Shown here piece after piece: positions 8,729 to 64,000 of a stretch of 64,000 nucleotides of DNA (the first letter of the stretch is position 1; each line of letters opens with the position of its first letter). Made by a program: the position numbers and the translations under genes. This DNA comes from Clostridia bacterium. GTDB lineage: Bacteria > Bacillota > Clostridia > UMGS1840. The stretch covers positions 27,773 through 91,772 of the forward strand of contig JAZQKB010000015.1 in NCBI GenBank assembly GCA_045541975.1, given 5' to 3'. Under the pieces are notes generated by a model, which did not search any database, was not told the origin of the DNA, and saw only the letters and a list, made by a program, of their open reading frames with translations.

Positions 8729-8738
8729 ACTATCCCTC

Positions 8739-15319: not shown

Positions 15320-15388
15320 CTTTTTTTCCTCCACTGATATATTCAAGAATTTACATCACTCGTTCTTCGTACAGAAGAATCTATCGTT

Positions 15389-48903: not shown

Positions 48904-50351
48904 AAGGCAGGCGAAAGATTATGATGGAACGGTTATTCACCACGAAAATGAGTGCAAACAGAAAGAAATTAGAATCCCGATTTCAAAAGATACGCACAAA
49001 AAACGGAAAGCTTTCCAAATGGATTGGCTATGCACTGTTTGGAATCATTCTGCTTGCCGTAGTTAGTGTTGGGATTGTGATTGCCGTAAACCGCAGTGAA
49101 GATTACCGCATGAGCGATACCCGTTTTTCTGAGTATTTAAACCGTCCTGTAGGTGCCATTATGGCAGAAATTGATTATTTAGATCATGAAAAGCTGGTCT
49201 TTCATTATCTGGACGGATTTTTTGTGATCAATCTGCAACCAAGAGAAGTATTACATAAAATTGATTTGGGTGCTTTAAACATTGCAGGACATACGCAAGG
49301 AGACTGCTTTACGGTATTTCAGGCAGATCAAAGGGGAAATTATGTATATCTGAAAAATGAGGGCCCCCGTGATAGGATTGGCAATTATGACAACTACATC
49401 ATCAATCTGCATACCGGCGACGTGAGCCTTGGAACAATGCCTCAGGAAACCGAGCTTTTTTCAAATTTCGCCGATACTTTTACCAAAGTGGGTAATCCCT
49501 ACGGATTTTACAGCATCCGCTGTGTGACTGAGGAAACAAAAACGCATTATCTCACTGTTTTGGAAAGCGATTTTTCCTCCCTGCAACTGGTCAGTGTTGA
49601 CCATCAGGCAGAGGATAACAGTCGGTTTACCTATCTGTTCCCCAGGTTGTATGTCAGCGATGCCAACAAAAGAAATGAAGTGATAGAAAAATCGCTGTCT
49701 GACGGAGAAGAAATCACAAAAAACAGCGGTCTTGACTGGGAAGTAAATGCAGATACCGTCCGTTCCCTGATTCATAAAATCAGCGAACTGCGACAAATGC
49801 AATATCAACAAATTCCCGACGGAAACTATGTTGTTACCATCCAGAATATTGAGAAAAACGGTGAAGTGTATCAAAAGCTGTTTATCATCAACAACTACAA
49901 CACGGAGTTGATTCTTTCCGAAAAACTGACGGATGAGGATTACTACATGGGCATCATCAATATTTTAAATTCCCCCGTCAGTGATTTGTATCACAAAACC
50001 GAAGAATTTTTGGCACAGGAATTTCACAGAGTGCATGACCCCTTGTATGATATTCAGCACTTAACCATTTCCAACTGGGAAGAACACGGAAACGAAGCAA
50101 CCTTCTGGTACAAAATGACCTTTTTATACTACAATCGTGACCCCGACAAAGCAGCCTACATTCAGGAAGCGAAGCAGAGAAGTCAAAAAGAATATGAAGT
50201 GCTGTATGAGGATTATTTAGCATTAAAAGAAGGAAATTTTCAGTTTAAAATTATCGACAACGGTACTACTCTGGAGCTATATACCAATGTGGCTCCCCAA
50301 GGCACCGAGTGGGTTCCCATCACTGTTGATGACTTTGTAATGTCTGATTGA
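48900..50351 (+). CDS. Single-pass membrane protein, paralog A (short cytoplasmic N-terminus, TM helix, ~420-aa ectodomain of unknown function)
   Basis: It has an ATGA overlap with the M56 gene. The start may instead be 48921/48924 (MMERLF). The N-terminus 'FTTKMSANRKKLESRFQKIRTKNGKLSKWIG' is followed by TM 'YALFGIILLAVVSVGIVIAV'. Confidence 0.6.
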   Translation: MKGRRKIMMERLFTTKMSANRKKLESRFQKIRTKNGKLSKWIGYALFGIILLAVVSVGIVIAVNRSEDYRMSDTRFSEYLNRPVGAIMAEIDYLDHEKLVFHYLDGFFVINLQPREVLHKIDLGALNIAGHTQGDCFTVFQADQRGNYVYLKNEGPRDRIGNYDNYIINLHTGDVSLGTMPQETELFSNFADTFTKVGNPYGFYSIRCVTEETKTHYLTVLESDFSSLQLVSVDHQAEDNSRFTYLFPRLYVSDANKRNEVIEKSLSDGEEITKNSGLDWEVNADTVRSLIHKISELRQMQYQQIPDGNYVVTIQNIEKNGEVYQKLFIINNYNTELILSEKLTDEDYYMGIINILNSPVSDLYHKTEEFLAQEFHRVHDPLYDIQHLTISNWEEHGNEATFWYKMTFLYYNRDPDKAAYIQEAKQRSQKEYEVLYEDYLALKEGNFQFKIIDNGTTLELYTNVAPQGTEWVPITVDDFVMSD

Positions 50352-50361
50352 GGTGACCGCA

Positions 50362-51993
50362 ATGTTAGAAACAATATTTACCACAAAAATGAGTGCAAAC
50401 AAAAAGAAATTAGAATCCCGATTTCAAAAGATACGCACAAAAAACGGAAAGCTTTCCAAATGGATTGGTGCTGGTCTGTTTTCCGTGGTGGTTCTGGCGA
50501 TTCTTGTAATCTCCATATATCTGGCTGTTTCCTATGCCGGAAAAGGTACTCCTGCAAAGGAACTGTATGCACTAAAAAACACCTCTCTACAGGATGCCAA
50601 GTCCATTCACAACATTGTATATACCGCCGATATTACCCCCTATCAGCTTCATTCTTCGGAGGTACGAACAGACTCCTTTGAAAAGCGACTTGCCATCAAA
50701 TTTATGGTAGATGACCGCTCTGAGCATCGGGTTTCGGATGACACTGCTCTTCGGAAGCTTTCGGCAATTCTTCTGTCTCTGGTGCCGGAGGTAGATTCCG
50801 TAAGCTGTCTACTCTTTGACCGGTATTCAGAAGATCTTAACAACTGGGAAACATGCTTTTACAGTACCTATGTTTCCAAATCCGACCTACATTCCCGAAG
50901 TGAATTTGAACTATTTACCAAAGATTATCTGAACCATGCAACCAAAAGCTTACAGACCTACGAAGAATTTTACCGTAACATTGCCTTAATCAGCTCTCAG
51001 CACGAATTAAGTGCCTATGTAAAACAAATTTATTCTTTTATCGGAAACGATTATGAAATCGTGCCAAACAGCGGACTGGGTGCGGAATTTCTGGTAGACC
51101 GTGAATTTTTGGAATCCCCGGAATGTGCCGAAATCCGCCGTTTGTTTAATATGAAACCGGAGGAATACTTAGGGCACGCTCTGCAATTAAACAAACATAC
51201 CATCCGTAATTTCAAAAATAATACCAATCAAAAACACCTGGTGCTCTGTGAGAGTACCCCGCAGGAAACGCCCATCATTGCACAGAAAATTATCGAGGAG
51301 GAACAGGCAGAGGCAATTCGTTCCCTGATAGGAACCCTGATGAAAAAAACAGCCGATCTCTATCTCCCAAATGCAGAAAATCTGACCTATACGCAGGCAC
51401 TGGCGTTGCAATATCAGGTAAACCAAGGGCATTATCCCTGGCGATTAGACCCAAAGCAAGTCATTCAAAGCTTTTTATCTGCCCAGGGAGAGCCTGAGCA
51501 GAACATCCGTTTTCCGGAGCTTGAAAGTGATTCTTTGCATTATGTAAACGGTACGATTGAATTAGAAGTCTATCAACCCATTGAGAAAGGAAAACAAGGG
51601 ATCTGGATTGTGAAAAGTTATCTGAAAAAAGAACCTCCCGTTCTAAAAGATATCAATTTTTACAGCATTAACCCACAGGACAACACCTTAGGCAACGAAC
51701 TTATAAAACGGGAGGACGGTTGGTACCAATTCCCAACCGAAGCAGGAGCATTTATCAATCTAAAAGGTGGCTCCCCTGCATCTGTAACCGCCTATTTTAC
51801 CCCCACAGGAACCAATATGGAGCCATACAAAAAGCAGGTTGGCTATGCCGAACCGCCTTTCCCGCAAGTTCCCATTTCTATCAGGCTTCGGTTTACACCG
51901 GAAGACACAACAGGGCATTTACAGTTTGTGTGTAAAGGACAGGATGGCTCAACAGTGGAATCAGAATTATTCAATGTATTCATTACAAACTAA
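50362..51993 (+). CDS. Single-pass membrane protein, paralog B (same N-terminus, DUF4825-like region in the ectodomain)
   Basis: The track ORF starts at GTG 50353. ATG 50362 has a GAGGTG RBS 6 nt upstream. 'LYALKNTSLQDAKSIHNIV..ALRKLSAILLSLVPEVDSVSCLLFD' resembles DUF4825, a domain I recall as frequently linked to M56 peptidases. Confidence 0.55.
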   Translation: MLETIFTTKMSANKKKLESRFQKIRTKNGKLSKWIGAGLFSVVVLAILVISIYLAVSYAGKGTPAKELYALKNTSLQDAKSIHNIVYTADITPYQLHSSEVRTDSFEKRLAIKFMVDDRSEHRVSDDTALRKLSAILLSLVPEVDSVSCLLFDRYSEDLNNWETCFYSTYVSKSDLHSRSEFELFTKDYLNHATKSLQTYEEFYRNIALISSQHELSAYVKQIYSFIGNDYEIVPNSGLGAEFLVDREFLESPECAEIRRLFNMKPEEYLGHALQLNKHTIRNFKNNTNQKHLVLCESTPQETPIIAQKIIEEEQAEAIRSLIGTLMKKTADLYLPNAENLTYTQALALQYQVNQGHYPWRLDPKQVIQSFLSAQGEPEQNIRFPELESDSLHYVNGTIELEVYQPIEKGKQGIWIVKSYLKKEPPVLKDINFYSINPQDNTLGNELIKREDGWYQFPTEAGAFINLKGGSPASVTAYFTPTGTNMEPYKKQVGYAEPPFPQVPISIRLRFTPEDTTGHLQFVCKGQDGSTVESELFNVFITN

Positions 51994-51995
51994 GC

Positions 51996-52030
51996 ACAAA
52001 AAAGGCAACCGATGAACGGTTGCCTTTTTT
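51996..52030. terminator. Bidirectional terminator between convergent genes
   Basis: aaaaaAAAGGCAACCG-atgaa-CGGTTGCCTTTttt. Confidence 0.8.
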
Positions 52031-52031
52031 A

Positions 52032-52181
52032 TTATACCACTTGTTTTGCCATAATGATTTCCACGGCTTTGTCGGGATACTTCTCCTTTGCCTGCTTTTT
52101 TGCTTTGGCAGGAGTATCGGCATCCACAACCAGGCGGTCAATCTTGCCGTCAACCTCGACGACAATTTCATAGGATTTCAA
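52032..52181 (-). CDS. Candidate 49-aa small protein, not in the ORF track
   Basis: TTG start at 52181, with AAGGAGG (52198..52192) 10 nt upstream. Hand translation gives MKSYEIVVEVDGKIDRLVVDADTPAKAKKQAKEKYPDKAVEIIMAKQVV*. The stop TAA (52034..52032) abuts the terminator. It begins 21 nt after the stop of the 1066-aa Hint protein. Confidence 0.45.
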   Translation of the reverse strand: MKSYEIVVEVDGKIDRLVVDADTPAKAKKQAKEKYPDKAVEIIMAKQVV

Positions 52182-52202: not shown

Positions 52203-55200
52203 CTATTTTACATACAGGTCAATCAGGCTGACAATGTAATCCCAGGTGAAAATTCCTTTTTCTACGGGGATTTTTAAGTACGCGCCATTAAAGCTGATAA
52301 ACTGTTCGTAGGTTACCAGGTCTTTAAAGTCTGCGTAAGTATATAAACCGTAGGTTTCCACATCCTTTTGGAATTTTTGGGTATCGTAACGGAGCTTTTC
52401 GCCCATTTCAATCCAGTTATAGAAATCATCCGGAGGTGCAACAGTCAGCATACCTTCTGCCAGTGCATTGGCATTTCCTGCAGAGGTTAAAGAATATGCA
52501 ACGGTGGTTTCATAGGTTGTTTCGGTTGCAGTTAAGGTTACCAGGCTGTAGCCGTCGGCATCCATTTTCACAAACTGATGACCTACGTATTCTCCCATAT
52601 TGTCTACGGTTAAGTAAACATATTTGTTCAGGTCATAATCAAACACACCGTGATCACCGATGATTCTTAAGGTGGTGCCATCGGAGAAGGTTAAGTTTGC
52701 AACCGGATAGGTATCTTCTCCGTGATTTACAAGCAGTGCAAGATTGGTTTCTTCCACTTCGCCGGTGAAGAAGTTGTAGGATAGAACGGTGTCATCCATG
52801 GTAATGTCAGAAATTGCTTTTTTGCTGCCGTTTGCCAGGGTAATCAAGGTGTCGGCAGTAAAGCAGCTGCTACCACCTGTAGCCGCCGTCAGCGTACCTG
52901 CACAGAATTTGTTGTAATCATATTCATTATCCTGGTCTTCTGCTACACTCCAGGTATGGGAGAAGGACAGGCTCTTACCATTTTTATCGGTAAACACATA
53001 AGACACAGGAACCGTTCTTGCAGTGTTTCCAGTATTTACCAGACCGCTGGAGCTTGATGCCACAAAATAGAGCTTGTTGGTGCCGTTATTATCTACCACA
53101 ACGGGCATTGCATACACTTTTTTACTGGAGTGTACCTGTCCGCCGGTTACGGTTAAGGTGAAGTCTTCATTTTCGGGAGTATAGGTCCAAACGGTATTGG
53201 TGCCGTTTTGCTGACCGAGAGTGGTGGGCGTGTAATCGGAGAGCAGAATGGTCTTATACTGGCTTTCTGCTACACTCCAATAAGTGATTTCTACGCCTTC
53301 CAAGGCAGGAGCCGCACCGTGCCAGGTGCCACCCTTGGAGGATGCCACACAAAGACCAGCTTCCCAGTTAGAAGCCGCCAGAACAGGAGCATTTTTGTCG
53401 GATTCGGTGCCGCTGACATAGAAGGGATAGGTATAGGTTACGGTTTTATCAACCGCTTCCCCGTTTTCATCATAGAAGATGTTATCGGTGACATTTAACT
53501 CATACATATGAGTACCCACGGTTACGGGAATTGTCTGGGTAGTATCCACAGTTTCGCCGTTTTGGGTTACGGTGTAGGATAAGTCTTTGCCGTATTTTGT
53601 AAGAGTCAGTTTGGAGAAATCGAAGCTATAGGCACCCTTATCTAAATTTACGGTCAGACGGTTAATCCAACCGGTTTCATTAATATATTCGTGGGTTAAC
53701 ACTTTATTTTCATCAGTTTCGGAATACACCGCAGTTGCCAAAATGTTACCGTTTGCGGTGGATTCATAGGTGGGATAGGTTGCCACTTCAGGGTCAGTTC
53801 CGTTAGCATTGGTATAGGAATATACCTTCACGGAGGTCAGATCCAGATTCTGATAGGGTACACTGTCTTTATTCACACGGTTATCGTAAATTACCGGGTC
53901 ATTCAGTTTGGCGCCCATATCCTCTACCATATAGATAAAGCCCAAGTTCAGAGAATCACGGGTAATGCCGTCTTTATAAGTAATGGGATGGATATATTCT
54001 TCCTGGCTTAACACATGGTTTACCATAGACTGTGCTTCTGCCGGAACATATACCTTATATTCTTCGTTTGCCCATGCATACTGAATCAGTTTGCCTTCTA
54101 AGGTGATGGGAGTAGCATTACCTTCGGAATCTGCCACGGTAAATAAGCTAATGCCCATCAACGTCTGGGTAGTATCGTGAACAGTTGCCTGGATTGGCTC
54201 CTGAATCAAGGTAACATCCCGTAAGGTCAGGCTGTTTGCCGCATTCAGATGAATATTGGCTGCTGCACCGCCGTATACAGTGGTGTTATCTAAAACAGTA
54301 TCTCCTGCAGTGACATACAAAGCTGCACGACCACCGGAAATGTAGGAATTGGAAATGGTACAGTCACCGGTTACCATTACTGCACTTCTGATATTGTAGT
54401 AACGGGTTTTGGTGCCGTCAATCTGAGGCTCGGTGGGGTCATCGTATTTGTTGGATTCGTATAAAATGGGATAGGGGAAATTGGGTGCGATAATCCGCAC
54501 GTTATCCAGGTTTCCGTTATTTACAGTCATAAAGGCATAGCCACGGTCTAATGCTGCCTGGTCGGAGGTAGCAGTCATGGAGAAGCCGTTACCGTAAATG
54601 GTATGACCGCCGGATACCACCTGCTGACCTAAGCCCACATTATTTAATAAAACAATGTCTCGGTCAGTAGCACTCATAGCAGCGGTGGTGTTGTATGCAT
54701 CTACAACTTCTAAAAGAAGCTGGGTAGGTTTGGTATCTTCCAAATCATCAGAAATTACAAGCTTCACAATACCGGTTCCGGTAAAGGACACGGTTCTTGC
54801 GGTCCAGTCGGTGCCTTCGCTGATGGTAGCAGACACACCGGTACCGTCAATAGGCTCTGCACTAACACTTACGTTGCCGATTTCCACATTGTCTGCAGCA
54901 GCAAACAGTTTGCCAAGTGCAACGCTATTCTGATTTCCCACACGGTAAAGGTATGTATCGGTATTTTCAAATACTGTCACAAATTTTTCAGTGAGAATGG
55001 GATCGTGACTGATCGTTGCTGCCGGAATTAAGGGACAGATGGTATCAGTATCCACCCAGCAGAACACTTTGAGATAGTCGGTATCTCCCACGGTAATATC
55101 AGCGGTGGTAACGGTTAACAAATCTCCCGTCATACCGCCATGAAATGCCATGGGTTCCATTTTTAAAAGCTTTCCGCCTTCTTCATAATGTCCAACCAGA

Positions 55201-55403
55201 ACAAAAACAGTTCCTTCCCTTGGAACTTCGGCAGATGCTTTGGCGTAAACAGTGTCTACGCCTAATAAGGTGTCTGTCACCTGGTCGGTTTCGGCATTGT
55301 AAAACACGATGCCCTGGTCATTGGCACGAACGCTCAGTACCAGTGATGAAACCAGCATGGTAACAATTGCAACAGCAAGAATGAAACTCACAATTTTTTT
55401 CAA
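52203..55403 (-). CDS. Secreted beta-helix-type surface protein with a C-terminal Hint (Hedgehog/intein-like) module and conserved tail
   Basis: 1066 aa with a TTG start. Signal peptide MKKIVSFILAVAIVTMLVSSLVLSVRA. The central ~300 aa is paralogous to the giant neighbour ('YLYRVGN.N.VA...LF', 'IVLLNN.G', 'YGNGF(S/T)MT', 'LDNVRI(I/V)AP'). The C-terminus reads 'SS/CFTADTLITLANGSKKAISDI..GDHGVFD..NALAEGMLTV' followed by a 78-aa tail. Confidence 0.8.
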   Translation of the reverse strand: MKKIVSFILAVAIVTMLVSSLVLSVRANDQGIVFYNAETDQVTDTLLGVDTVYAKASAEVPREGTVFVLVGHYEEGGKLLKMEPMAFHGGMTGDLLTVTTADITVGDTDYLKVFCWVDTDTICPLIPAATISHDPILTEKFVTVFENTDTYLYRVGNQNSVALGKLFAAADNVEIGNVSVSAEPIDGTGVSATISEGTDWTARTVSFTGTGIVKLVISDDLEDTKPTQLLLEVVDAYNTTAAMSATDRDIVLLNNVGLGQQVVSGGHTIYGNGFSMTATSDQAALDRGYAFMTVNNGNLDNVRIIAPNFPYPILYESNKYDDPTEPQIDGTKTRYYNIRSAVMVTGDCTISNSYISGGRAALYVTAGDTVLDNTTVYGGAAANIHLNAANSLTLRDVTLIQEPIQATVHDTTQTLMGISLFTVADSEGNATPITLEGKLIQYAWANEEYKVYVPAEAQSMVNHVLSQEEYIHPITYKDGITRDSLNLGFIYMVEDMGAKLNDPVIYDNRVNKDSVPYQNLDLTSVKVYSYTNANGTDPEVATYPTYESTANGNILATAVYSETDENKVLTHEYINETGWINRLTVNLDKGAYSFDFSKLTLTKYGKDLSYTVTQNGETVDTTQTIPVTVGTHMYELNVTDNIFYDENGEAVDKTVTYTYPFYVSGTESDKNAPVLAASNWEAGLCVASSKGGTWHGAAPALEGVEITYWSVAESQYKTILLSDYTPTTLGQQNGTNTVWTYTPENEDFTLTVTGGQVHSSKKVYAMPVVVDNNGTNKLYFVASSSSGLVNTGNTARTVPVSYVFTDKNGKSLSFSHTWSVAEDQDNEYDYNKFCAGTLTAATGGSSCFTADTLITLANGSKKAISDITMDDTVLSYNFFTGEVEETNLALLVNHGEDTYPVANLTFSDGTTLRIIGDHGVFDYDLNKYVYLTVDNMGEYVGHQFVKMDADGYSLVTLTATETTYETTVAYSLTSAGNANALAEGMLTVAPPDDFYNWIEMGEKLRYDTQKFQKDVETYGLYTYADFKDLVTYEQFISFNGAYLKIPVEKGIFTWDYIVSLIDLYVK

Positions 55404-55490: not shown

Positions 55491-55520
55491 ACTGTATCAT
55501 AACAAGAGGACATTTGTCAA
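55491..55520 (-). promoter_or_regulatory. Possible promoter of the 1066-aa Hint-protein gene
   Basis: On the minus strand: TTGACA (55520..55515), an 18-nt spacer, then TGaTACAGT (extended -10-like). Confidence 0.35.
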
Positions 55521-55612: not shown

Positions 55613-55647
55613 AAAAAGCCCCGCAGGAAAACCTGCAGGGCTTTTTT
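55613..55647 (-). terminator. Rho-independent terminator of the giant gene
   Basis: The minus-strand RNA reads GCCCUGCAGG-uuuu-CCUGCGGGGC (one G-U pair) followed by UUUUU. Confidence 0.8.
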
Positions 55648-55663: not shown

Positions 55664-58600
55664 TTAGTTCATATGGAGTTCTAGCAGGAAGATGATTTCA
55701 TCGAAAGTAATAAATCCTTTTCCTACAGAAACCTTAAAGATGGGAAGATTCAGACCCATAAATTGTTCATAGGTAACATAATCTTCAAAATCTTCATAAG
55801 TGTATAAGCCGTAGGTTTCGATGTCTGCCTGCATAGCAGCTTCATCATACTTCATATCTTCACCAACTGCGAAAGGCATTAAGTAGTTTTCACTGCCTTC
55901 CACCTGTCCGGGAGTTAATGCCAACATACCCTCTACAATACAGTTATGATGTTCTGCAGTCAGAACAGACCAGCTTTCGGTGTACTGTTCTTCAATGTTG
56001 TAATCAACCAATTTAGCCGTTTCGTTGCCGTTTTCGGTGTAAACCACGAAGGTATGTCCAATATAATCTGCAACATTGGTGTCACTGAGCATTACGAAAC
56101 GTTTTGCATCCACATCGTAGAAAGCGTGTCCTCCGATGGTGTTTACTTTGCTTCCATTATCGAAGTATACAGTTGTTACTAAGTAATTATCGTAACCATG
56201 GTTGTCAATAATTACTGCGGGTCTAGCAGTATATTCACCGCTTACGAAGTCCCAAACAAGCAACTGATCAGCATAGGTCAATTCGTCAACCCGTTTCTGG
56301 CCACCATCTGCTAAAGTGATTAACGTATCGGGGGTGAAACAGGTTCCGCTACTGGAGGCTTCAATCGTAACATTGGAAGCAGGCATGGTAAAGGTATAAG
56401 TACCAGCTGCGCTCTGAGACAATATGGTATTATTTGAAGCATCCTTAACGGTCAGCGTTTTGTTGTTATTCTGTGAGAAGGAAACGGTAACGCTAACAGT
56501 CTCATTATAATAAGCTGTAGTTTTATCTACGGTAACAGTTGCGTTGTTCTGCTTGGAAATAGTAATAGTATACGAAATATGTGTCCACTGTGCATATAAG
56601 GTGATATTTGCAGTGGGGGTATACGGACTTTCTATCTTAGTTCCTCCGGATGCTGCGGTGTACCAGCCATCAAAGGTGTAACCGGTTCTGTCATTCGGTG
56701 TGGGTAAGGTTAATGCAGTTCCCAGATAGGTCTGAGAGGTGGTACCGCAAGAACCGCCGTTGGTGGTTGCATCATAAGTTACCACAACAGGATCTTTCCA
56801 CTGTGCATATAAAGTGATATTTGCGGTGGGAGTATAAGTATTGCCACCGATACCAATCTTAGTACCGCCGGATGCCGCAGTGTACCAACCGTTGAAGGCA
56901 TAACCGTCACGGGTGGGTGTGGGCAAGGTTAACGTTGTGCCTTGGTAAGATGCACTTGCCGGGGTAACAGATCCGCCGTTTGCATTGTAGGTTACGGTAT
57001 ATACCGGTGACCACTGTGCATACAGGGTAATATCGCCGGTTGCCTGATAGGATGCACCTGCAGCACCAATCTTATTGCCACCCTCTGCTGCATCATACCA
57101 ACCGGTGAACCAGTAACCGTCACGGGTAGGTGTGGGTAAGGTTAATGCAGTTCCGGTGTAGTTGTCAGAGGTTCTGTCGCAAGAACCGCCGTTTGCATCA
57201 TAGAGTACGGTGCTGGGTTTGCCCCACTGTGCATATAAGGTGATATCTGCAGAGGGAGTGTAGGAATCGCCTGCGCCACCTACTCTGGTACCGCCGTTTG
57301 CTGCAGTATACCAACCGGTAAACATGTAGCTTCCGCGTTTGGGTGTGGGCAGGGTGACAGAAGTGCTTACAGAGGTTGCATATGCGGTGGTCTGTGTGCA
57401 GGTACCTTCGTTTGCATCAAAGATTACAGTCGCTTTGATGGTGGTGCCAAAGGTTCCGGTGGGAACAGAACCATTTTCGCAATTTGCAAAGGTTACAGCG
57501 CCGGATTTAATTTCCACACCGTTGTTACCGATGAAGGTATAGTTGGAAATTACCCAGGTGGTAGTAGTAGCACTGGTGGTACCGCCGTTTACATAGTAAA
57601 GAGTGTTGCCACTTGTGTTCAGCGTACCAGTATAGGTAGAACCGCCGCTTACTGCTCTTGCGGTGGTATCAACATTGATCACGCCGCCGTCAATTAATTT
57701 TACTTCAATCAGAACGTGGTTTGCACTGGTGTAACCGGTAATGGTTGCACTTGCAATCTTGTTAAAGTCGTTATCGCCGTCAAATCTTAAGTATGCGTCC
57801 TGACCGTTATAGTCATAAATTTTTAAGCCTGCCAGGAAGGGTAAGTACTGGGTCTGACCGCCTGCAAAGATGCTCTTTTTCGCATAACCCATAACCTGCT
57901 TGGAGGTATCATAGTCAAAGTAAGCATCAGGAATGCTGTTATCTTTTAAGGAAACGGTAATGGTTACATTCCAGCTATACTCTTTGGTATCGGAAACGGT
58001 AACACCGTCTTTATCGTAGAATACCGTGTCGGTTACGGTGTAGGTTACGGTATAATTTCCTGCATTGGATAAGGAAACTTTTCCGTTGGTTACAGCAACC
58101 GCATTGCCGTTTTCGTCATGACAGGTGATGCCCATGCCAAGATCCTGACCGGTATACTTAGTGATATTTACCATAGTGGAAAGATCAAATTCTTTGGTAT
58201 CGCCGGAGGGGAACATTACATTGACAACTTTATTCAGCTTGCTTTCCACATAGCAGAATTCGTCTCCACCTTCATCCGGTACCTTCTGTCCGCCTAAGTC
58301 GTCGGTGAAGTTAAACTGCGGTTCGTACCAGCTATTTTCGGTAGACTTGTCTGCATTTTGATAATCGGAATAAATCTGATCTGCAGTTGCATTTTTCAGA
58401 GAATATGCATTACCGCTGACACCCGAAATAGAAACAGTACCAAAGTCGTAAGGTAATCCGGTATTGTTGGTAATAGGCGCATCATAGGTGTTCATATAAA
58501 TCAGAGTTAAGTTGGATGCGGTTTTACCGTTTACAGTATGATTAAAGTCTTCTGCTCTTACTGCTGCATCAATAATCTTTTGTGCTGCTTCGTCAGACAC

Positions 58601-61600
58601 TGCATTCTTATCGTCTGCAGTTACCCAGTTATACTGTTTTAATTCGCCGTTTAAGACAATAGCAGGGTTATCGTTGGTTTCAGGACCAACTATGATACCT
58701 GCACCCATCATAACCTTGGTAGTATCAACAACGGTGGAGTTGGTCTGATACTGAATGGTAGTTAAATTATCCAAGGTTACAGTATGACTGCTGTTACTCT
58801 GAATCTGCATATTTGCTACCACACCGTTTTCCAAAACGGTATCTTTTACGGTTACATCACCGGTGTTTACAAAGATGTTGTTTCTGCCACCGTAGATGTA
58901 ACAGTTGGAGATGGTAGCATTGCCGGATGCTGCCACTGCAGACAACTGATAGTAGTATCTGATTTTAGTAGTATCCGAAGTATCTGTTTCGGAAGGACCG
59001 GAGGTTACAGCCTGACCGATGGAAGCACTGCTGTAATACAGATATGCATTGGGATAAATGGGTGCCACAATTCTTACGTTATCTAACGTACCGTTTTCGG
59101 ATACAGTTACAACACCCTGTTTCAGACCGTTTTTCAGATAACGTCCATCACCGGAATAGGTCATGGTGAAGCCGTTTCCGTAGAAGGTGTAATCACCGGA
59201 TACGTTTAAGGTGCTAACACCGCAGTTATTCAAAAGAACAATGTTGCCGGAAGTTGCGTGAGTTGCACCGATTGCATTGGTTGCATCCACAACTTCTAAG
59301 TATAATTCGGTGGGGATACAGTAATCGTTATCGGTAACAGTTACTTTTACCACACCGGTTCCGGTGAACGTGATGTTCTGGGTAGAAGCATCGTAGCTTC
59401 CGCCTGCTGCACTACCGTCAACTGCTTCCACAGTAACAGCCACAGTACCGATTTCGGCATCTGCTTTCGCTTTGAATAAACTGCTGAATGCAACAGTATT
59501 CTTATTACCTACACGGTAGAGATAGGATTCTGTATTCGGGAATACTAAATCAAATTTTTCTACCGGCTGTAAGTCTACCACTGTCACAGTAATCGTGGTG
59601 GGAGTACAGAAGTAGTAGTCGGTAATGGTGATGGTTGCTGCACCCAAACCTTCAAAAGCTAAAGTACCCTGTGTCCAGTCGGTAGCGTTTGCTTCGTAGG
59701 TTGCAGTAACCGTGCTGGTTTCATCTGTAGGAGATACCATTACCTGAACATTTGCACCAACAATTTCAACTTCATCCTGTGCAGCTGCTTCAAACAAGTC
59801 GCCAATGGTTACTGTGGTGCCGGTAATATAGGTTTCTTTTGCGATAGATTTGAATTTTTCAACAGAATTTGCTTCTACTCTGTCTAAAATGGTGATGCCT
59901 TCAAAATAAGTTTTTCCGTCGTTATAAATGGGAACGTTTTTCACGCCCCAGCCGGAGCCTTGAAATAACTGATTGAAAGGCAGGTAAATGTGCTGTTTGT
60001 CTTCTTTTAAGTCGGGCTTGCCGTCACCATTTTCGTCGATGCTTTCTTCATAGCCTGCATCTTCATGGTTCCAAACTGCACCGTCTACAAAATGGTAACA
60101 GGTTGCATTTTCGGTAGCATGAGTACCGTTTACTACCACATAGTTCTTACGACCGGTAGTGGGAATTGCGGTGGTTACACCGTCCACAGTAACGGTCATA
60201 TTCGCTACATCCACACTGTCTACTTCATCCAGTCTGGAGAACTGATGGTCGTGAGTGTAGGATGCGATGGAATTTACAACCATTTCACAGTAGTAATAAT
60301 TGTTCCAATCACCAAAGTGAACGGTACAATTTTTTGCGGTGATGCCGGTCATGTCAGGAACGGTATAGCCGTTTTCGTCGGTAGTGTTTGCCTGAACCGT
60401 ACCGATCATCATACCTGCATAACGGTACCAGTAGTACTGGTAGTTACCGCAAACGTCATTAAATACGTCCAGCTGTGCAGCAACGTGGCAGTTTTCAAAA
60501 GATACGCCACATTTGCTGTCGGGATAGTATCTACCCATAATACCTGCGCAGGCAACGTCATAGCTGCCCCACAGCGCAGAGATTTTGTTGGTGTTATCTA
60601 CGGTGATATTTCTAAAGATAATGGGAGTATTTTCAATGTCAGTTTTTTCTCTGGAATACCAGCCGCCGCTACCAACGATACCGCCGTTACCAATGTTGTA
60701 AACACGGGGATTACAGTTGGTAATTGCGATGTTTTCAAAAATAGCGCTTCTGCCTTCCCAGCTTTCCGCATAAGTAGCGATCACACCGGTAGTGGTGATT
60801 TCACCGTCGGATTTGAAGTTATCCACAGTTAAGTTTTTAATGGTTGCACCATAAACTTTACCAAAGATACCCATACCGTCACGGTAATACTGTTCTTCGG
60901 GGGTATACCATTCGTGGTCACCTTTCATTTCCCAGGTGTTCTGGTAAATGTTTTTAATCGTGTGACCGTTCCCGTCGAAGGTACCCATGAAAGGCTTCAT
61001 TCCACTGGTGATAGCGGTATTGGTTCTTTCGTAGGTATATTCGGAGTTATAATAACCAACGGGATAGAAAATTTTATTGGGATCATTTGCTTCTTCGCCG
61101 TCGGCAAAGTTGATATCGGAAATCAGCTTAAAATATTTCCCGTCAAAGGAATCCTGAGTGCGTCCTTCCATACCGCCAACAACGGCACTTAAATATGCCA
61201 TCTGGTCTGCATTGGCAATGATATAAGGATCACTTTCCGTACCGGTACCACCGGAAAATCCGGTAGCGATGTTACCTTCCCATCCCTGCTCGGTTTCTGC
61301 AACCACAGTGATTTCGGAGAAGGTTGCCAGTGCAACTGCAAGAGTACCGTCTGCCGGATCATAGGTGAACTGGTTATGAGCAACTAAATCTTCTTTGGTT
61401 GCCACTTCTTCCATTTTAACGGTTTCGCCGTCTTCCACATGGTATAAGCTTAAGTTCCCTTTGTTGTAACCGGGTTCGATTGCTTCGTTTACGGTAACAA
61501 TAATGGGCGTGGTGTTATAATCGGAAACGCCTTCCACGTGAACGTCCATTGCAGACAAACTTTCATGTTCGCCTGCTTCTACACCGCTTTTAGAATCTTC

Positions 61601-64000
61601 CAAAACGGAGGTAGAAAGAGCCAAGGCAGTAGTGCCTTCTTCCATGACAACGCCTGCAGGAACTTCTGCAGTTACATTGGCAGAGGTAAGAACCGTAGCT
61701 TCGGTGGTTACATTCACATCAGGGTGATATACATAGGTTCTGCCGATGGTGTAGAACTCAGTTTCGTCTTCGGGATTATAAATGCGAAGTTCTAAAGTTA
61801 CTTCTAAATCGGGATTTGCCTGTTTGAATGCATCGGTAAAGTAGATACCGCAGTCAAAATCTTTCACTTCGGTGTAGATATCGTAACAGGTCAGTTTCAA
61901 TCCGCTCTGTCCCATTAATTCTGCTGCAGTTTCCATCACACGGATAGGAGTATCTGCCTCTAAGGTTGCATCTTCAAAGGGTACGGATACCCAGTTTTCA
62001 CTCCAAGCATCATACTGACCGGAAAGATAACCGTCTGCAGTACCGTCTGCATTGATGGTTACTTCTTTGTTTACGGTTAATACATAATCTGCATACCAAT
62101 TGCCGTATTTTTCAATCTGTTCTGCAGTGGGAGTATCTGCTTTGAAGTTTAAAGCAAAATCCAAGTCAACCGGCAGAGTGGTTACATCCAGCTCAGTTAC
62201 GGTTGCAGTGGGCAGATTGCCGGGACGGTATGCATAGCTTCTGCCGATGGTGTAAAACTCAGTTTCGTCGTCAGGATTATAAATGCGAAGTTCCAGAATG
62301 ATTTCTAAGTCTTTGTTGGCTGCTAAGAACTCGTCCGTCAGACTAACACCGCAATCGAAGTCTTTTACTTCAGAGTATACGTCATAACAGGTGAGTTTTA
62401 AGCCACTCTGACCCATCAACTCTGCCGCAGTTTCCATAATTTTTACAGGTTCGTTGGCAGGTAGGGTAGCATCCTCAAAGGGTACAGATACCCAGTTTTC
62501 ACTCCAGGCATCATACTGGCCGGAGAGGAAACCGTCTGCACCGCCATTAGCATTCAGAGTGATTTCTTTGTTGGTTACCAGTACGAAATCGGCGTACCAG
62601 TTGCCATATTCTTCAATCTGTTCTGCAGTGGGAGTATCTGCTTTGAAGTTTAAAGCAAAATCCAAGTCAACCGGCAGAGTGGTTACATCCAGCTCAGTTA
62701 CGGTTGCAGTGGGCAGATTACCGGGTCTGTAGGTATAGGTTCTGCCAATTACATAAGACTCGCTTTCGTCTTCGGGATTGTAAATTCTTAATTCTAAAGT
62801 TACTTCTAAATCGGGATTTTCCTGCTTAAATGCTTCGGTAAAGAAAATACCGCAATCGAAGTCTTTCACTTCGGTGAAAATGTCATAACAGGTGAGTTTT
62901 AACCCACTCTGTCCCATTAATGCTGCTGCAGTTTCCATAACTCTGATGGGAGTATCTGCTTCTAAGGTAGCATCCTCAAAGGGTACAGATACCCAGCTAG
63001 AGCTCCAAGCGTCATACTGACCGGAGAGATAGCCGTCTGCGGTGCCGTTTGCGTTAAAGGTTACTTCTTTGTTTACGGTTAAAACATAATCTGCATACCA
63101 GTTTGCATATTTTGCAGCCTGTGCTTCCGTGATTTCGTCAACTTTGAAGTTTAATGCAAAGTCTAACTCAACCGGCAGAGTGGTTACATCCAGCTCAGTT
63201 ACGGTTGCAGTGGGCAGATCACTGGGTTTGTAGGTATAGGTTCTGCCGATGGTATAGGATTCTTCTTCATTTTCCGGATTGTAAATCTTTAATTCTAAAG
63301 TTACTTCTAAGTCCGGATTTGCTGCTTTAAATTCGTCGGTGAAGAAGATACCGCAATCAAAATCTTTTACTTCGGTGAAGATGTCATAACAGGTGAGTTT
63401 TAACCCGCTCTGTCCCATTAATGCTGCTGCAGTTTCCATCACTCTGATAGGAGTATTTGCTTCTAAGGTTGCATCTTCAAAGGGTACGGATACCCAGCTA
63501 GAGCTCCAGGCGTCATACTGACCGGAGAGATAGCCGTCTGCGGTGCCGTTTGCGTTAAAGGTTACTTCTTTGTTCACGGTTAATACATAATCTGCATACC
63601 AGTTTGCATAAACTGCAGCCTGAGCGTCGGTAATATCATCTGCTTTAAAGTTTAATGCAAAGTCTAACTCAACCGGCAGCGTAGATACGTCCAGCTCGGT
63701 TACGGTTGCGGTGGGCAGACTAACTGGTCTGTAGGTATAGGTTTCACCAATAACATAAGACTCGCTTTCGTCTTCGGGGTTGTAGATTCTTAATTCTAAG
63801 GTTACTTCTAAGTCGGGATTTGCCTGTTTAAATTCTTCGGTGAAGAAAATACCGCAATCGAAGTCTTTTACTTCGGTGAAAATGTCATAACAGGTCAGTT
63901 TTAACCCACTCTGTCCCATTAATGCTGCTGCAGTTTCCATCACTCTGATGGGAGTATCTGCTTCTAAGGTTGCATCTTCAAAGGGTACGGATACCCAGCT
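55664..64000 (-). CDS. Giant secreted surface protein (at least 2778 aa in window, 5'-truncated) with tandem repeats, beta-helix regions, Listeria-Bacteroides repeats and a C-terminal Hint module plus conserved tail
   Basis: The frame stays open from 63943 to 64000 (SWVSVPFEDATLEADTPIR then VMETAA..), so the true start is outside the window. 'GGTGTESDPYIIANADQMAYL' and 'GTFDGNGHTIKNI' are typical entries into beta-helix/GLUG-type domains. The C-terminus reads 'SSSGT/CFTPDTLITLADGGQKRVDEL..GGHAFYD..HHNCIVEGMLAL' followed by an 83-aa tail. Confidence 0.85.
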   Translation of the reverse strand, partial: SWVSVPFEDATLEADTPIRVMETAAALMGQSGLKLTCYDIFTEVKDFDCGIFFTEEFKQANPDLEVTLELRIYNPEDESESYVIGETYTYRPVSLPTATVTELDVSTLPVELDFALNFKADDITDAQAAVYANWYADYVLTVNKEVTFNANGTADGYLSGQYDAWSSSWVSVPFEDATLEANTPIRVMETAAALMGQSGLKLTCYDIFTEVKDFDCGIFFTDEFKAANPDLEVTLELKIYNPENEEESYTIGRTYTYKPSDLPTATVTELDVTTLPVELDFALNFKVDEITEAQAAKYANWYADYVLTVNKEVTFNANGTADGYLSGQYDAWSSSWVSVPFEDATLEADTPIRVMETAAALMGQSGLKLTCYDIFTEVKDFDCGIFFTEAFKQENPDLEVTLELRIYNPEDESESYVIGRTYTYRPGNLPTATVTELDVTTLPVDLDFALNFKADTPTAEQIEEYGNWYADFVLVTNKEITLNANGGADGFLSGQYDAWSENWVSVPFEDATLPANEPVKIMETAAELMGQSGLKLTCYDVYSEVKDFDCGVSLTDEFLAANKDLEIILELRIYNPDDETEFYTIGRSYAYRPGNLPTATVTELDVTTLPVDLDFALNFKADTPTAEQIEKYGNWYADYVLTVNKEVTINADGTADGYLSGQYDAWSENWVSVPFEDATLEADTPIRVMETAAELMGQSGLKLTCYDIYTEVKDFDCGIYFTDAFKQANPDLEVTLELRIYNPEDETEFYTIGRTYVYHPDVNVTTEATVLTSANVTAEVPAGVVMEEGTTALALSTSVLEDSKSGVEAGEHESLSAMDVHVEGVSDYNTTPIIVTVNEAIEPGYNKGNLSLYHVEDGETVKMEEVATKEDLVAHNQFTYDPADGTLAVALATFSEITVVAETEQGWEGNIATGFSGGTGTESDPYIIANADQMAYLSAVVGGMEGRTQDSFDGKYFKLISDINFADGEEANDPNKIFYPVGYYNSEYTYERTNTAITSGMKPFMGTFDGNGHTIKNIYQNTWEMKGDHEWYTPEEQYYRDGMGIFGKVYGATIKNLTVDNFKSDGEITTTGVIATYAESWEGRSAIFENIAITNCNPRVYNIGNGGIVGSGGWYSREKTDIENTPIIFRNITVDNTNKISALWGSYDVACAGIMGRYYPDSKCGVSFENCHVAAQLDVFNDVCGNYQYYWYRYAGMMIGTVQANTTDENGYTVPDMTGITAKNCTVHFGDWNNYYYCEMVVNSIASYTHDHQFSRLDEVDSVDVANMTVTVDGVTTAIPTTGRKNYVVVNGTHATENATCYHFVDGAVWNHEDAGYEESIDENGDGKPDLKEDKQHIYLPFNQLFQGSGWGVKNVPIYNDGKTYFEGITILDRVEANSVEKFKSIAKETYITGTTVTIGDLFEAAAQDEVEIVGANVQVMVSPTDETSTVTATYEANATDWTQGTLAFEGLGAATITITDYYFCTPTTITVTVVDLQPVEKFDLVFPNTESYLYRVGNKNTVAFSSLFKAKADAEIGTVAVTVEAVDGSAAGGSYDASTQNITFTGTGVVKVTVTDNDYCIPTELYLEVVDATNAIGATHATSGNIVLLNNCGVSTLNVSGDYTFYGNGFTMTYSGDGRYLKNGLKQGVVTVSENGTLDNVRIVAPIYPNAYLYYSSASIGQAVTSGPSETDTSDTTKIRYYYQLSAVAASGNATISNCYIYGGRNNIFVNTGDVTVKDTVLENGVVANMQIQSNSSHTVTLDNLTTIQYQTNSTVVDTTKVMMGAGIIVGPETNDNPAIVLNGELKQYNWVTADDKNAVSDEAAQKIIDAAVRAEDFNHTVNGKTASNLTLIYMNTYDAPITNNTGLPYDFGTVSISGVSGNAYSLKNATADQIYSDYQNADKSTENSWYEPQFNFTDDLGGQKVPDEGGDEFCYVESKLNKVVNVMFPSGDTKEFDLSTMVNITKYTGQDLGMGITCHDENGNAVAVTNGKVSLSNAGNYTVTYTVTDTVFYDKDGVTVSDTKEYSWNVTITVSLKDNSIPDAYFDYDTSKQVMGYAKKSIFAGGQTQYLPFLAGLKIYDYNGQDAYLRFDGDNDFNKIASATITGYTSANHVLIEVKLIDGGVINVDTTARAVSGGSTYTGTLNTSGNTLYYVNGGTTSATTTTWVISNYTFIGNNGVEIKSGAVTFANCENGSVPTGTFGTTIKATVIFDANEGTCTQTTAYATSVSTSVTLPTPKRGSYMFTGWYTAANGGTRVGGAGDSYTPSADITLYAQWGKPSTVLYDANGGSCDRTSDNYTGTALTLPTPTRDGYWFTGWYDAAEGGNKIGAAGASYQATGDITLYAQWSPVYTVTYNANGGSVTPASASYQGTTLTLPTPTRDGYAFNGWYTAASGGTKIGIGGNTYTPTANITLYAQWKDPVVVTYDATTNGGSCGTTSQTYLGTALTLPTPNDRTGYTFDGWYTAASGGTKIESPYTPTANITLYAQWTHISYTITISKQNNATVTVDKTTAYYNETVSVTVSFSQNNNKTLTVKDASNNTILSQSAAGTYTFTMPASNVTIEASSSGTCFTPDTLITLADGGQKRVDELTYADQLLVWDFVSGEYTARPAVIIDNHGYDNYLVTTVYFDNGSKVNTIGGHAFYDVDAKRFVMLSDTNVADYIGHTFVVYTENGNETAKLVDYNIEEQYTESWSVLTAEHHNCIVEGMLALTPGQVEGSENYLMPFAVGEDMKYDEAAMQADIETYGLYTYEDFEDYVTYEQFMGLNLPIFKVSVGKGFITFDEIIFLLELHMN
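56582..57432 (-). repeat. Four ~70-aa Listeria-Bacteroides (Flg_new-type) repeats within the giant protein
   Basis: The pattern '..(Y/F)DANGG.C....Y.GT.LTLPTPTR.GY.F.GWYTAA.GGTKIG..G..YTPT..ITLYAQW' occurs four times. The DNA motif ccactgtgcatata recurs with a ~210-bp period. Confidence 0.75.
61726..64000 (-). repeat. Tandem 501-bp (167-aa) repeats, at least 4.5 units, continuing past the window edge
   Basis: The unit start 'METAA(A/E)LMGQSGLKLTCYD' recurs with its first codon at 63940, 63439, 62938, 62437 and 61936, exactly 501 nt apart. Units are highly similar at the protein and DNA level. Confidence 0.9.

What the first reader, a model, noticed from the sequence alone, without database searches (positions are those of the whole stretch)
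55667..55915. The conserved ~80-aa post-Hint tail looks more like an adduct-recognition region than a variable toxin
In polymorphic toxin systems the segment after a Hint domain is a variable toxin paired with an immunity gene. Here the two tails (55667..55915 and 52206..52439) are clearly homologous: 'D(T/E)..(F/M)Q.D(V/I)ETYGLYTY(A/E)DF(K/E)D.VTYEQF(I/M)..N....K(I/V).V.KG(I/F).T(W/F)D.I(V/I).L(I/L).L'. They are acidic and hydrophobic, and I saw no obvious catalytic signature by eye.

The position of the tail mirrors the sterol-recognition region that follows the Hint module in Hedgehog proteins. The giant gene runs straight into its terminator with no downstream immunity-like ORF.
Basis: inference. 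Interest (0 to 1): 0.65.

Follow-up and report, generated by a model that had tools for sequence, protein, structure and literature searches.

The report
Self-cleaving Hint module with conserved tail
Two very large surface-protein genes end in the same ~225-residue cassette: a Hedgehog/intein-type self-cutting domain joined to a small, acidic, highly conserved helical domain of unknown fold. The cassette defines a large uncharacterised family in uncultured gut Clostridia and some of their phages, and it is not a swap-in toxin.

Summary
Both ORFs (55664..>64000 and 52203..55403) end in a Hint domain plus a ~80-aa tail. The tails are 49% identical (E 1e-23) and better conserved than the Hint.

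A tail-only profile finds 2220 protein clusters. The tail lies 2-18 aa after a Hint in 137 of the 142 new representatives among the top hits, and in 85 of 86 genomic copies. It almost always ends the protein. Cys1 and the block-B His are invariant. The position of the intein C-terminal Asn is never Asn, so only N-terminal cleavage is expected.

The tail is a confident all-alpha domain (pI ~4) with no match in Pfam, NCBIfam, PHROGs, PADLOC, PDB or BFVD. No conserved downstream gene exists. The "not a polymorphic toxin" part is therefore well supported.

"Adduct recognition" is neither shown nor excluded. The tail has no similarity to the Hedgehog SRR, and the Hedgehog Asp46 and Cys143 are not conserved. 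The same cassette also sits in a phage head-module protein. Related phage tail-fibre Hints share only the linker motif and carry other short tails. The most likely reading is a clade-specific accessory subdomain of a cleavage-only Hint. This is a new variant of a known kind.

The parts
55664..64000 (-). Giant surface-protein ORF (at least 2778 aa, N-terminus outside the window). It has 501-nt tandem repeats, a beta-helix-like region and 4 Flg_new repeats, then the Hint+tail cassette and the stop codon at 55664-55666.
55913..56341 (-). Hint domain of the giant protein: Cys1 (codon 56341..56339) to Thr145. It carries block A CFTPDTLITLADG and the block-B His. The position equivalent to the intein terminal Asn is Thr.
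55853..55912 (-). Linker between Hint and helical tail (PGQVEGSENYLMPFAVGEDM). It contains the F-x-x-x-x-G-E-x-MKY motif, which is shared with related phage Hints.
55667..55852 (-). Helical tail domain of the giant protein (62 aa; KYDEAAMQADIETYGLYTYEDF...KVSVGKGFITFDEIIFLLELHMN). Family-invariant residues are D175, Y179, G180, Y184, K205 and G211.
55613..55646 (-). Intrinsic terminator directly after the giant gene.
52203..55403 (-). Second surface-protein ORF (1066 aa, signal-peptide-like N-terminus, beta-helix-like region). It ends in the same cassette. A promoter-like site lies at 55491..55520.
52440..52865 (-). Hint domain of the second protein, starting at the Cys of GGSS|CFTADTLITLANG.
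52206..52439 (-). Linker plus helical tail of the second protein (78 aa).
52032..52181 (-). 49-aa ORF with an AAGGAGG ribosome-binding site, followed by a terminator (51996..52032). It is not conserved next to other cassettes, so it is probably not part of the system. It is listed because it is the only immunity-like candidate.

Best explanation
Hint plus tail form one self-processing C-terminal cassette.

Inferred from Hint chemistry: the invariant Cys1 attacks the preceding peptide bond, which follows a Ser/Gly-rich linker with S, G or T at position -1. This gives a thioester, helped by the invariant block-B His. There is no C-terminal Asn, so no splicing or C-terminal cut is possible. Resolution of the thioester therefore frees the large N-terminal passenger and leaves a ~25-kDa Hint+tail by-product.

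The tail is an obligate, clade-specific accessory subdomain. It is folded, acidic and all-alpha. It is docked rigidly on the Hint, probably with its GKGxxT loop against catalytic blocks A, B and F. Its likely job is to stabilise or gate the Hint active site and the thioester-resolving step, with water as the default nucleophile. It is neither cargo nor a toxin.

Shown here: the architecture, the conservation, the fold, the linkage and the absence of toxin or immunity features. Inferred: the cleavage itself and the tail's catalytic or regulatory role.
For: - Fold: Hint fold with high confidence, and tail and Hint modelled as one rigid unit (pLDDT 96.6, pTM 0.91).
- Catalytic residues: Cys1 present in 207/207 sequences that span the junction; position -1 is mostly S, G or T after an S/G-rich linker. 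H74 is invariant in 206 non-redundant sequences, together with six tail residues (D175, Y179, G180, Y184, K205, G211).
- No C-terminal cut: the position aligned to the intein terminal Asn is T/P/D/S/A and never N.
- One-to-one linkage of this Hint clade and this tail: 137 of 142 new representatives among the top hits; 85 of 86 tails and 85 of 85 Hints in 82 loci; gap 2-18 aa; the tail ends the protein (median 4 aa from the C-terminus).
- The tail folds on its own (pLDDT 93) and matches nothing known.
- Covariation: a mean-field DCA whose top intra-Hint pairs are sensible hairpin contacts places K210, I213 and T214 against L12 (block A), G73 (next to H74) and L129/T130 (block F).
- Sister Hints on phage tail-fibre-like proteins keep the linker motif FNNIYxIxxMK(F/Y) but carry other short tails. 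This is as expected for a lineage-specific extension of the enzyme rather than cargo.
- The cassette also occurs in a phage gene that follows terS, terL and portal genes, which argues for an intrinsic role independent of the cell envelope.
Against: - No experiment shows cleavage.
- I could not read the model coordinates, so the position of the tail's invariant polar residues relative to Cys1 is not known.
- The DCA signal is weak (Meff ~200; inter-domain pairs rank 32 and below).
- Six invariant residues in a 62-aa domain, four of them polar or aromatic, fit a binding site for a specific nucleophile equally well (rival 1).
- A tail better conserved than the enzyme it serves is unusual for a mere structural cap.
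Confidence: 0.45

Rival explanations
1. True Hog-like transfer. The tail binds and positions a specific non-water nucleophile, such as a wall glycopolymer, a peptidoglycan amine, a lipid or another protein. The thioester is then resolved by ligation, giving covalent, sortase-independent attachment of the passenger.
For: - Same position as the Hedgehog SRR/ARR, in signal-peptide-bearing proteins (98 of 111 full-length members have a hydrophobic N-terminus).
- Invariant polar residues in the tail.
- Hint+tail proteins never carry SLH, LPXTG, LysM or CWB anchors (0 of 40 by Pfam; 0 of 347 by an SLH profile that finds 15 SLH-bearing segments in the background).
- A neighbouring paralogue with the same passenger domain (50% identity) ends in three SLH domains instead.
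Against: - No similarity to the SRR.
- No conserved equivalent of Hedgehog Asp46 or Cys143.
- The tail is strongly acidic and globular, not membrane-active.
- An intact cassette occurs in a phage head-module protein that is made and assembled in the cytoplasm.
- Sister clades replace the tail with unrelated short segments.
Confidence: 0.2
2. Removable assembly, chaperone or retention tag. The tail's main job is outside catalysis, for example to oligomerise or hold the fibrous or beta-helical passenger until it is folded. The Hint is only the device that removes the tag. This would be analogous to the C-terminal intramolecular chaperone (Peptidase_S74) of phage tailspikes.
For: - Passengers are long beta-helix, repeat or adhesin-like proteins.
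- Related Hints sit at the C-terminus of a collagen-like phage tail fibre and of LamG proteins.
- The module is conserved while passengers vary.
Against: - No homology to S74.
- pTM 0.91 shows the tail packed on the Hint rather than free to pair with passengers.
Confidence: 0.2
3. The Hint is catalytically silent in vivo, and the whole cassette is a permanent C-terminal binding or structural domain.
For: Pfam Hint scores are below threshold. There is no direct evidence of cleavage.
Against: Cys1 and block-B His are 100% conserved across more than 200 diverged sequences, and the -1 residue is small. That pattern is hard to explain without catalysis.
Confidence: 0.07
4. The tail is a conserved toxin or effector delivered by the large protein, as in polymorphic toxin systems.
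For: - A C-terminal position after a Hint is typical of such systems (Zhang et al. 2012, PMC3482391).
- Orphan 3' tail fragments exist elsewhere in genomes.
Against: - The tail is conserved, not polymorphic.
- No C-terminal cleavage site exists to free it.
- No toxin fold or family match.
- No conserved immunity gene; the giant gene ends in a terminator.
- It is 62 aa, acidic and all-helical.
Confidence: 0.03

Closest known systems
Hog domain of Hedgehog and nematode Hh-related proteins (Hint + SRR/ARR)
   Same: A Hint with an N-terminal Cys and no C-terminal Asn is followed directly by a conserved 60-100-aa helical region at the C-terminus of a secreted protein. Only the N-terminal scissile bond can be processed.
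   Different: - The tail shows no sequence similarity to the SRR.
- It is acidic and globular rather than a hydrophobic helix-loop-helix.
- Asp46 and Cys143 equivalents are not conserved.
- The junction is S/G/T-Cys-(V/I/F), not the fixed Gly-Cys-Phe.
- It is bacterial and phage-borne.
- Adduct transfer is unproven.
Type B bacterial intein-like (BIL) domains (Amitai et al. 2003; summarised in PMC4031507)
   Same: [quoted passage not shown]
   Different: - The window proteins do not match Pfam Hint_2 (PF13403); the phage copy scores 23 bits against a cut-off of 28.4.
- The conserved YGLYTY helical tail is not a described feature of BILs.
BIL2 domain of the Tetrahymena BUBL1 locus (PDB 6Y75/6TMM)
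   Same: It is the best match among solved structures, both by profile (E 2.4e-5) and by fold (Foldseek E 2e-10, target-normalised TM 0.78).
   Different: BIL2 has a C-terminal Asn (the crystallised form is C1A-N143A), lies between ubiquitin-like units and has no helical tail. Identity is only 18-19%.
PT-HINT polymorphic toxin systems
   Same: A Hint lies near the C-terminus of very large, repeat-rich exported proteins. Truncated 3' copies occur elsewhere in genomes.
   Different: The region after the Hint is conserved rather than polymorphic and matches no toxin family. There is no immunity gene and no means of release from the Hint.
C-terminal intramolecular chaperone / autocleavage domain of phage tailspikes (Peptidase_S74)
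   Same: A conserved, self-removing C-terminal module on variable fibrous passengers. Relatives of this Hint sit on phage tail-fibre-like proteins.
   Different: Unrelated fold and chemistry: a Ser-Lys dyad there against a Cys thioester here. No evidence of trimerisation here.

Membership tests
Hint (Hedgehog/intein) superfamily | Hint beta-fold | tested here: met
   AF2 pLDDT 96.6. Foldseek probability 1.0 with target-normalised TM 0.75-0.84 to BIL2, DnaB/RecA/DnaE mini-inteins and Hedgehog 1AT0.
Hint (Hedgehog/intein) superfamily | N-terminal nucleophile (Cys/Ser) and block-B His | tested here: met
   Cys present in 207/207 junction-spanning sequences. His74 present in 205/206 (shown as 1.0 after rounding).
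Hint (Hedgehog/intein) superfamily | Score above the curated Pfam/NCBIfam cut-offs | tested here: not met
   PF01079 scores 17-18 bits (cut-off 29.7). PF14890 scores 17-22 bits (cut-off 35.8). TIGR01445 scores 17.5 bits (cut-off 24.5). This is a divergent clade.
Inteins / type A BIL | C-terminal (His-)Asn for succinimide cleavage | tested here: not met
   The column aligned to the terminal Asn is T 95, P 56, D 22, S 15, A 13, V 2 and N 0.
Inteins / type A BIL | Insertion inside a host protein whose flanks are ligated | tested here: not met
   The cassette is always terminal and only the tail follows it.
Hog domain (Hedgehog type) | Hint directly followed by a conserved C-terminal region at the end of a secreted protein | tested here: met
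   Gap of 2-18 aa; the tail ends the protein; 98 of 111 members have a hydrophobic N-terminus.
Hog domain (Hedgehog type) | Tail homologous to the SRR/ARR | tested here: not met
   No PF01079 match beyond profile position 86. The tail alone gives no hit at E up to 10.
Hog domain (Hedgehog type) | Asp46 general base and Cys143 | tested here: not met
   The equivalent columns are variable: F/D/V/E/M at position 48, and no conserved second Cys (role of C143 from PMC12054796).
Hog domain (Hedgehog type) | Transfer of the passenger to a non-water nucleophile | not testable with these tools
   Needs biochemistry and mass spectrometry.
Type B BIL | No block-G similarity, cleavage only; match to Hint_2 (PF13403) | tested here: inconclusive
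   Block G is absent. The window proteins give no Hint_2 hit. The phage copy scores 23.2 bits, below the 28.4 cut-off.
Polymorphic toxin system (PT-HINT) | Variable C-terminal toxin domain | tested here: not met
   The tail is conserved across 2220 clusters and is more conserved than the Hint. No toxin family or fold match.
Polymorphic toxin system (PT-HINT) | Adjacent cognate immunity gene | tested here: not met
   A terminator follows the giant gene. There is no conserved downstream ORF in 82 loci.
Peptidase_S74 intramolecular chaperone | Homology to the S74 domain | tested here: not met
   No Pfam or PHROG hit.

The most novel reading that the evidence does not exclude
The tail is a genuine nucleophile-selecting (adduct-recognition) domain. 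The cassette would then be a bacterial and phage counterpart of Hedgehog autoprocessing: a one-shot, enzyme-in-cis ligase that covalently couples giant surface proteins, or virion proteins, to a wall polymer, lipid or partner protein. That would be a sortase-independent covalent anchoring route in anaerobic Firmicutes.
Probability: 0.17. Interest if true: 0.85.

Novelty: new variant of a known kind. Interest (0 to 1): 0.55.

Why it matters
Hint domains are known to splice (inteins), to add cholesterol (Hedgehog) or to release toxins (polymorphic toxin systems).

Here a fourth, very common arrangement appears: a cleavage-only Hint welded to a new small helical domain. It ends thousands of giant surface proteins of uncultured gut Clostridia, and it recurs, with other tails, on phage structural proteins.

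The family is absent from Pfam and NCBIfam, and I found no paper on it. It probably decides the fate (release, maturation or attachment) of major cell-surface proteins in ruminant and other gut anaerobes.

If the tail chooses the nucleophile, this would be the first prokaryotic analogue of Hedgehog lipidation. It would also be a compact natural protein-ligation tool. If not, it still defines a new accessory domain that controls Hint chemistry.

Tried and rejected
1. Toxin or nuclease identity of the tail. Pfam at E up to 10, NCBIfam, PHROGs, PADLOC, a PDB profile search and Foldseek against PDB and BFVD all found nothing significant.

2. EF-hand reading of DIExYGLYTYEDF. A calmodulin match at E 0.26 is noise. 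Loop position 5 is an invariant Tyr, and the model runs a helix through the would-be loop.

3. The 49-aa ORF after the second gene as an immunity gene or partner. It has no homologue near 86 other cassettes.

4. A conserved downstream partner in general. Downstream genes are heterogeneous: TasA/camelysin-like proteins, SLH paralogues, another Hint+tail gene, or convergent regulators.

5. "Tail-only" short proteins as free-standing genes.
- The cases examined are 3' remnants that begin inside the last Hint strand, or chimeric junctions with an AraC gene or a phage tail gene.
- One sequence with a glycosyltransferase N-terminus and a truncated Hint (P0093) looks like an assembly chimera.

6. Reading H-x-N-C at residues 133-136 as an intein C-terminus with a +1 Cys. 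This is the block-F HNF motif. Two further Hint strands follow, and the Cys is present in only 26% of sequences.

7. Homology between the Clostridial tail and the phage-type tails. hhalign aligns only the 14-column linker motif.

8. Retrieval of the source contig to see the N-terminus of the giant protein. The product is not on record.

9. TRF on the giant gene. The 501-nt period exceeds its limit; the repeat finder recovered the repeats.

10. Literature searches. Seven searches found no description of this cassette.
Full report
**1. What is in the sequence**

- Region 55667..55915 encodes the last 83 residues of an ORF that is open to the window edge (55664..>64000, at least 2778 aa).
- Region 52206..52439 encodes the last 78 residues of a 1066-aa ORF whose N-terminus looks like a Sec signal peptide.
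- In both proteins a Ser/Gly-rich linker is followed by C-F-T-x-D-T-L-I-T-L-A-(D/N)-G, about 143 residues of beta-rich sequence, a ~20-residue linker and a ~62-residue tail.
- The last ~225 residues of the two proteins align at 37% identity, E 4e-52. The tails alone align at 49%, E 1e-23, without gaps.
- Identity is uneven: Hint 34%, linker 15%, tail 50%.
- The giant gene ends in a 15-bp-stem terminator, and a promoter-like site precedes the second gene.

**2. The Hint**

- Pfam and NCBIfam give only sub-threshold Hint or intein hits.
- An AlphaFold2 model built on 88 homologues is very confident (pLDDT 96.6, pTM 0.91).
- Foldseek matches its first ~150 residues to the Tetrahymena BIL2 domain, many mini-inteins, the Clostridium thermocellum BIL and Hedgehog 1AT0. 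Probability is 1.0 and target-normalised TM is 0.75-0.84.
- A profile search of PDB sequences also ranks BIL2 first (E 2.4e-5).
- Across 206 family members non-redundant at 80%, Cys1, Gly15, Gly37, His74 (block B), Phe100 and Leu113 are invariant or nearly so.
- Cys1 is present in all 207 sequences that span the junction. Residue -1 is mostly Ser, Gly or Thr.
- The segment HHNCIVEGMLALT corresponds to intein blocks F and G (xHNFxAN-GxxVHN). The column that would hold the terminal Asn is T/P/D/S/A and never Asn.
- By the established chemistry of Hint domains (PMC4031507), this predicts N-S acyl shift and N-terminal cleavage only, as in Hedgehog and type B BILs.
- The Hedgehog-specific Asp46 and Cys143 have no conserved counterpart.

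**3. The tail**

- Modelled alone from 39 sequences, it folds confidently (pLDDT 93, pTM 0.81). It forms four main helices, preceded by a short helix and two beta-bridge residues in the linker.
- In the full model it forms one rigid body with the Hint (pTM 0.91).
- It matches nothing. There is no Pfam family at E up to 10, no NCBIfam, PHROG or PADLOC family, no PDB sequence (best E 0.13) and no PDB or BFVD fold (best E 4.5 or worse).
- It is strongly acidic (median pI 4.1) and is the best-conserved part of the cassette (0.67 against 0.54 mean top-residue frequency).
- D175, Y179, G180, Y184, K205 and G211 are invariant. D168, I176, L181, T183, K210 and T214 are at 90% or more.
- A home-made mean-field DCA was run on 286 sequences (Meff ~200). 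Its top intra-Hint pairs are plausible hairpin contacts. It couples the GKGxxT loop (K210, I213, T214) to L12 (block A), G73 (next to His74), L56 and L129/T130 (block F).
- That is weak evidence that the loop sits on the catalytic face. I could not read the model coordinates to check it.

**4. Distribution and linkage**

- A tail-only profile was scanned against 1.84 billion representative proteins. It finds 2220 with E at or below 1e-3, and 1903 at or below 1e-10.
- Of the 142 new representatives among the top 150, 137 have the Hint directly upstream (gap 2-18 aa). The tail ends a median of 4 residues from the C-terminus, in proteins of up to 5822 aa.
- In 82 fetched loci, 85 of 86 tails follow a Hint, and every Hint of this clade carries the tail.
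- The exceptions examined are remnants or junctions. They include ORFs starting at the Met of ...NGMLSMPGG... with unrelated DNA upstream, and fusions to an AraC gene or a phage major-tail gene.
- A scan of one genome per GTDB species gives 355 matching stretches. The 79 loci kept (the best-scoring matches) are all metagenome-assembled genomes. Most come from animal guts and most are Clostridia (Oscillospiraceae, Faecousia, Acutalibacteraceae, Christensenellaceae, Lachnospiraceae), with a few Acholeplasmatales or Bacilli.
- Several loci hold two or three copies, as the window does.

**5. Passengers and neighbours**

- 98 of 111 full-length members have a hydrophobic N-terminus. These are Sec-type, SipW/TasA-type ('TFAWFTD') or prepilin-type.
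- In 40 full-length members Pfam finds Flg_new (19), LRR_5, dockerin, a subtilase and Ig-like domains. It finds no toxin and no SLH, LPXTG, LysM or CWB anchor.
- An SLH profile that detects 15 SLH-bearing segments in the window and loci finds none in 347 family proteins, nor in any tail-bearing ORF.
- The window organism anchors other large enzymes by SLH.
- In locus L050 the gene next to a Hint+tail gene carries the same passenger domain as the giant protein (50% identity) plus Flg_new, but ends in three SLH domains. Hint+tail and SLH are therefore alternative C-terminal modules.
- Downstream genes are heterogeneous, and none is conserved.

**6. Phage relatives**

- In IMG/VR, three contigs encode terS, terL and portal. 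The next gene is a 767-aa protein ending in G|C-Hint plus a bona fide tail with every invariant residue.
- Fifteen further viral ORFs end in a related Hint (E 1e-17 to 1e-28 against the family Hint HMM). Among them are a collagen-like tail fibre and LamG proteins.
- In eleven of the fourteen examined, that Hint is followed by the linker motif (F/Y/L/C)(N/S)N(I/L/M/K)Y-x-I-x-x-M-K-(F/Y). Beyond the motif come different 25-90-aa tails.
- hhalign aligns only the 14-column linker motif between the two tail types.
- The linker therefore belongs to a broader Hint clade, and the helical tail is specific to this clade.

**7. Interpretation**

- The toxin reading fails every test made here. The tail is conserved rather than polymorphic, has no release site, matches no toxin fold and has no immunity gene.
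- The presence of the intact cassette in a phage head-module protein speaks against a cell-envelope-specific adduct as the general function.
- I therefore favour (0.45) a cleavage-only Hint whose clade-specific helical subdomain is part of the enzyme. It would stabilise or gate the active site and the resolution of the thioester, and it leaves with the Hint as a ~25-kDa by-product.
- Rivals: true Hog-like transfer (0.20), a removable assembly or retention tag analogous to phage S74 chaperone domains (0.20), a non-cleaving structural domain (0.07) and a toxin (0.03).
- Whether the cassette acts before or after export is also open. A folded Hint+tail might cut in the cytoplasm and never cross the membrane, which would fit the phage case.

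**8. Novelty**

- Seven literature searches found no description of this cassette.
- It is a new variant of a known kind: a Hint autoprocessing module with a new accessory domain. The family is large and confined to poorly studied anaerobes and their phages.

Noticed in passing
window 61733-63883 (-), continuing past 64000: The N-terminal part of the giant ORF consists of at least five tandem 501-nt (167-aa) repeats at 75-84% DNA identity (LPTATVTELDV...YNPEDE...). The same domain occurs once in an SLH-anchored protein next to a Hint+tail gene in locus L050. No Pfam family covers it.
   Followed up: partly
L083-L086 (tail remnant at 6001-6270 in L083-L085, 966-1235 in L086); L087 6001-6243: 89-aa and 80-aa 'tail-only' ORFs are 3' remnants that start inside the last Hint strand. 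In L083-L086 the remnant lies between sugar-metabolism genes and a variable region, which in L084 and L086 carries mobile-element genes (DUF5906 primase-like, SNF2, sigma-like). The conserved 3' end may mark a recombination or integration hot spot, or these may be orphan cassettes.
   Followed up: partly
L088-L090 (for example L089 4384-6687): A phage gene directly after terS, terL and portal encodes a 767-aa Q/A/E-rich protein ending in the full Hint+YGLFTY tail. This would be a self-cleaving protein in the head-assembly module.
   Followed up: partly
L091-L105 (viral contigs): A sister clade of Hints lies at the C-terminus of phage tail-fibre-like proteins (collagen-like, LamG). It carries the shared motif FNNIYxIxxMK(F/Y) and its own conserved tail (R.LR.L.EF..ID..W..GLRL.EQ). 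I found no description of C-terminal Hints on tail fibres in the papers searched.
   Followed up: partly
loci L004, L017, L020, L035, L036, L060, L061 and others, immediately downstream of Hint+tail genes: About 12 of the ~80 loci have TasA/camelysin-like small proteins with SipW-type signal peptides (..TWAWF.. or ..TLSYY..) just downstream. Several Hint+tail proteins themselves start with such a signal (..GTTFAWFTD..). This hints at a link with fibre or matrix gene clusters.
   Followed up: no
window 52032-52181 (-): A 49-aa ORF (LKSYEIVVEVDGKIDRLVVDADTPAKAKKQAKEKYPDKAVEIIMAKQVV) with an AAGGAGG RBS and its own terminator, directly after the 1066-aa gene. It has no family match and no homologue near other cassettes.
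   Followed up: yes
window 4424-18037 (-): A run of large exported polysaccharide-degrading enzymes: heparinase II/III with CBM96, a PL8 lyase and F5/8 type C lectin domains. Three of them carry SLH anchors. This suggests a glycosaminoglycan- or mucin-degrading gut Clostridium with an S-layer-type wall.
   Followed up: no
window 48073-51993 (+): A BlaR1-type M56 peptidase gene is followed by two ORFs of 483 and 546 aa with no Pfam family. They are convergent with the Hint+tail genes.
   Followed up: no
P0188 (542 aa, from the representative search): A rare member in which the tail is not terminal. About 220 further residues follow it: an acidic Pro/Glu linker and then a beta-rich domain.
   Followed up: no
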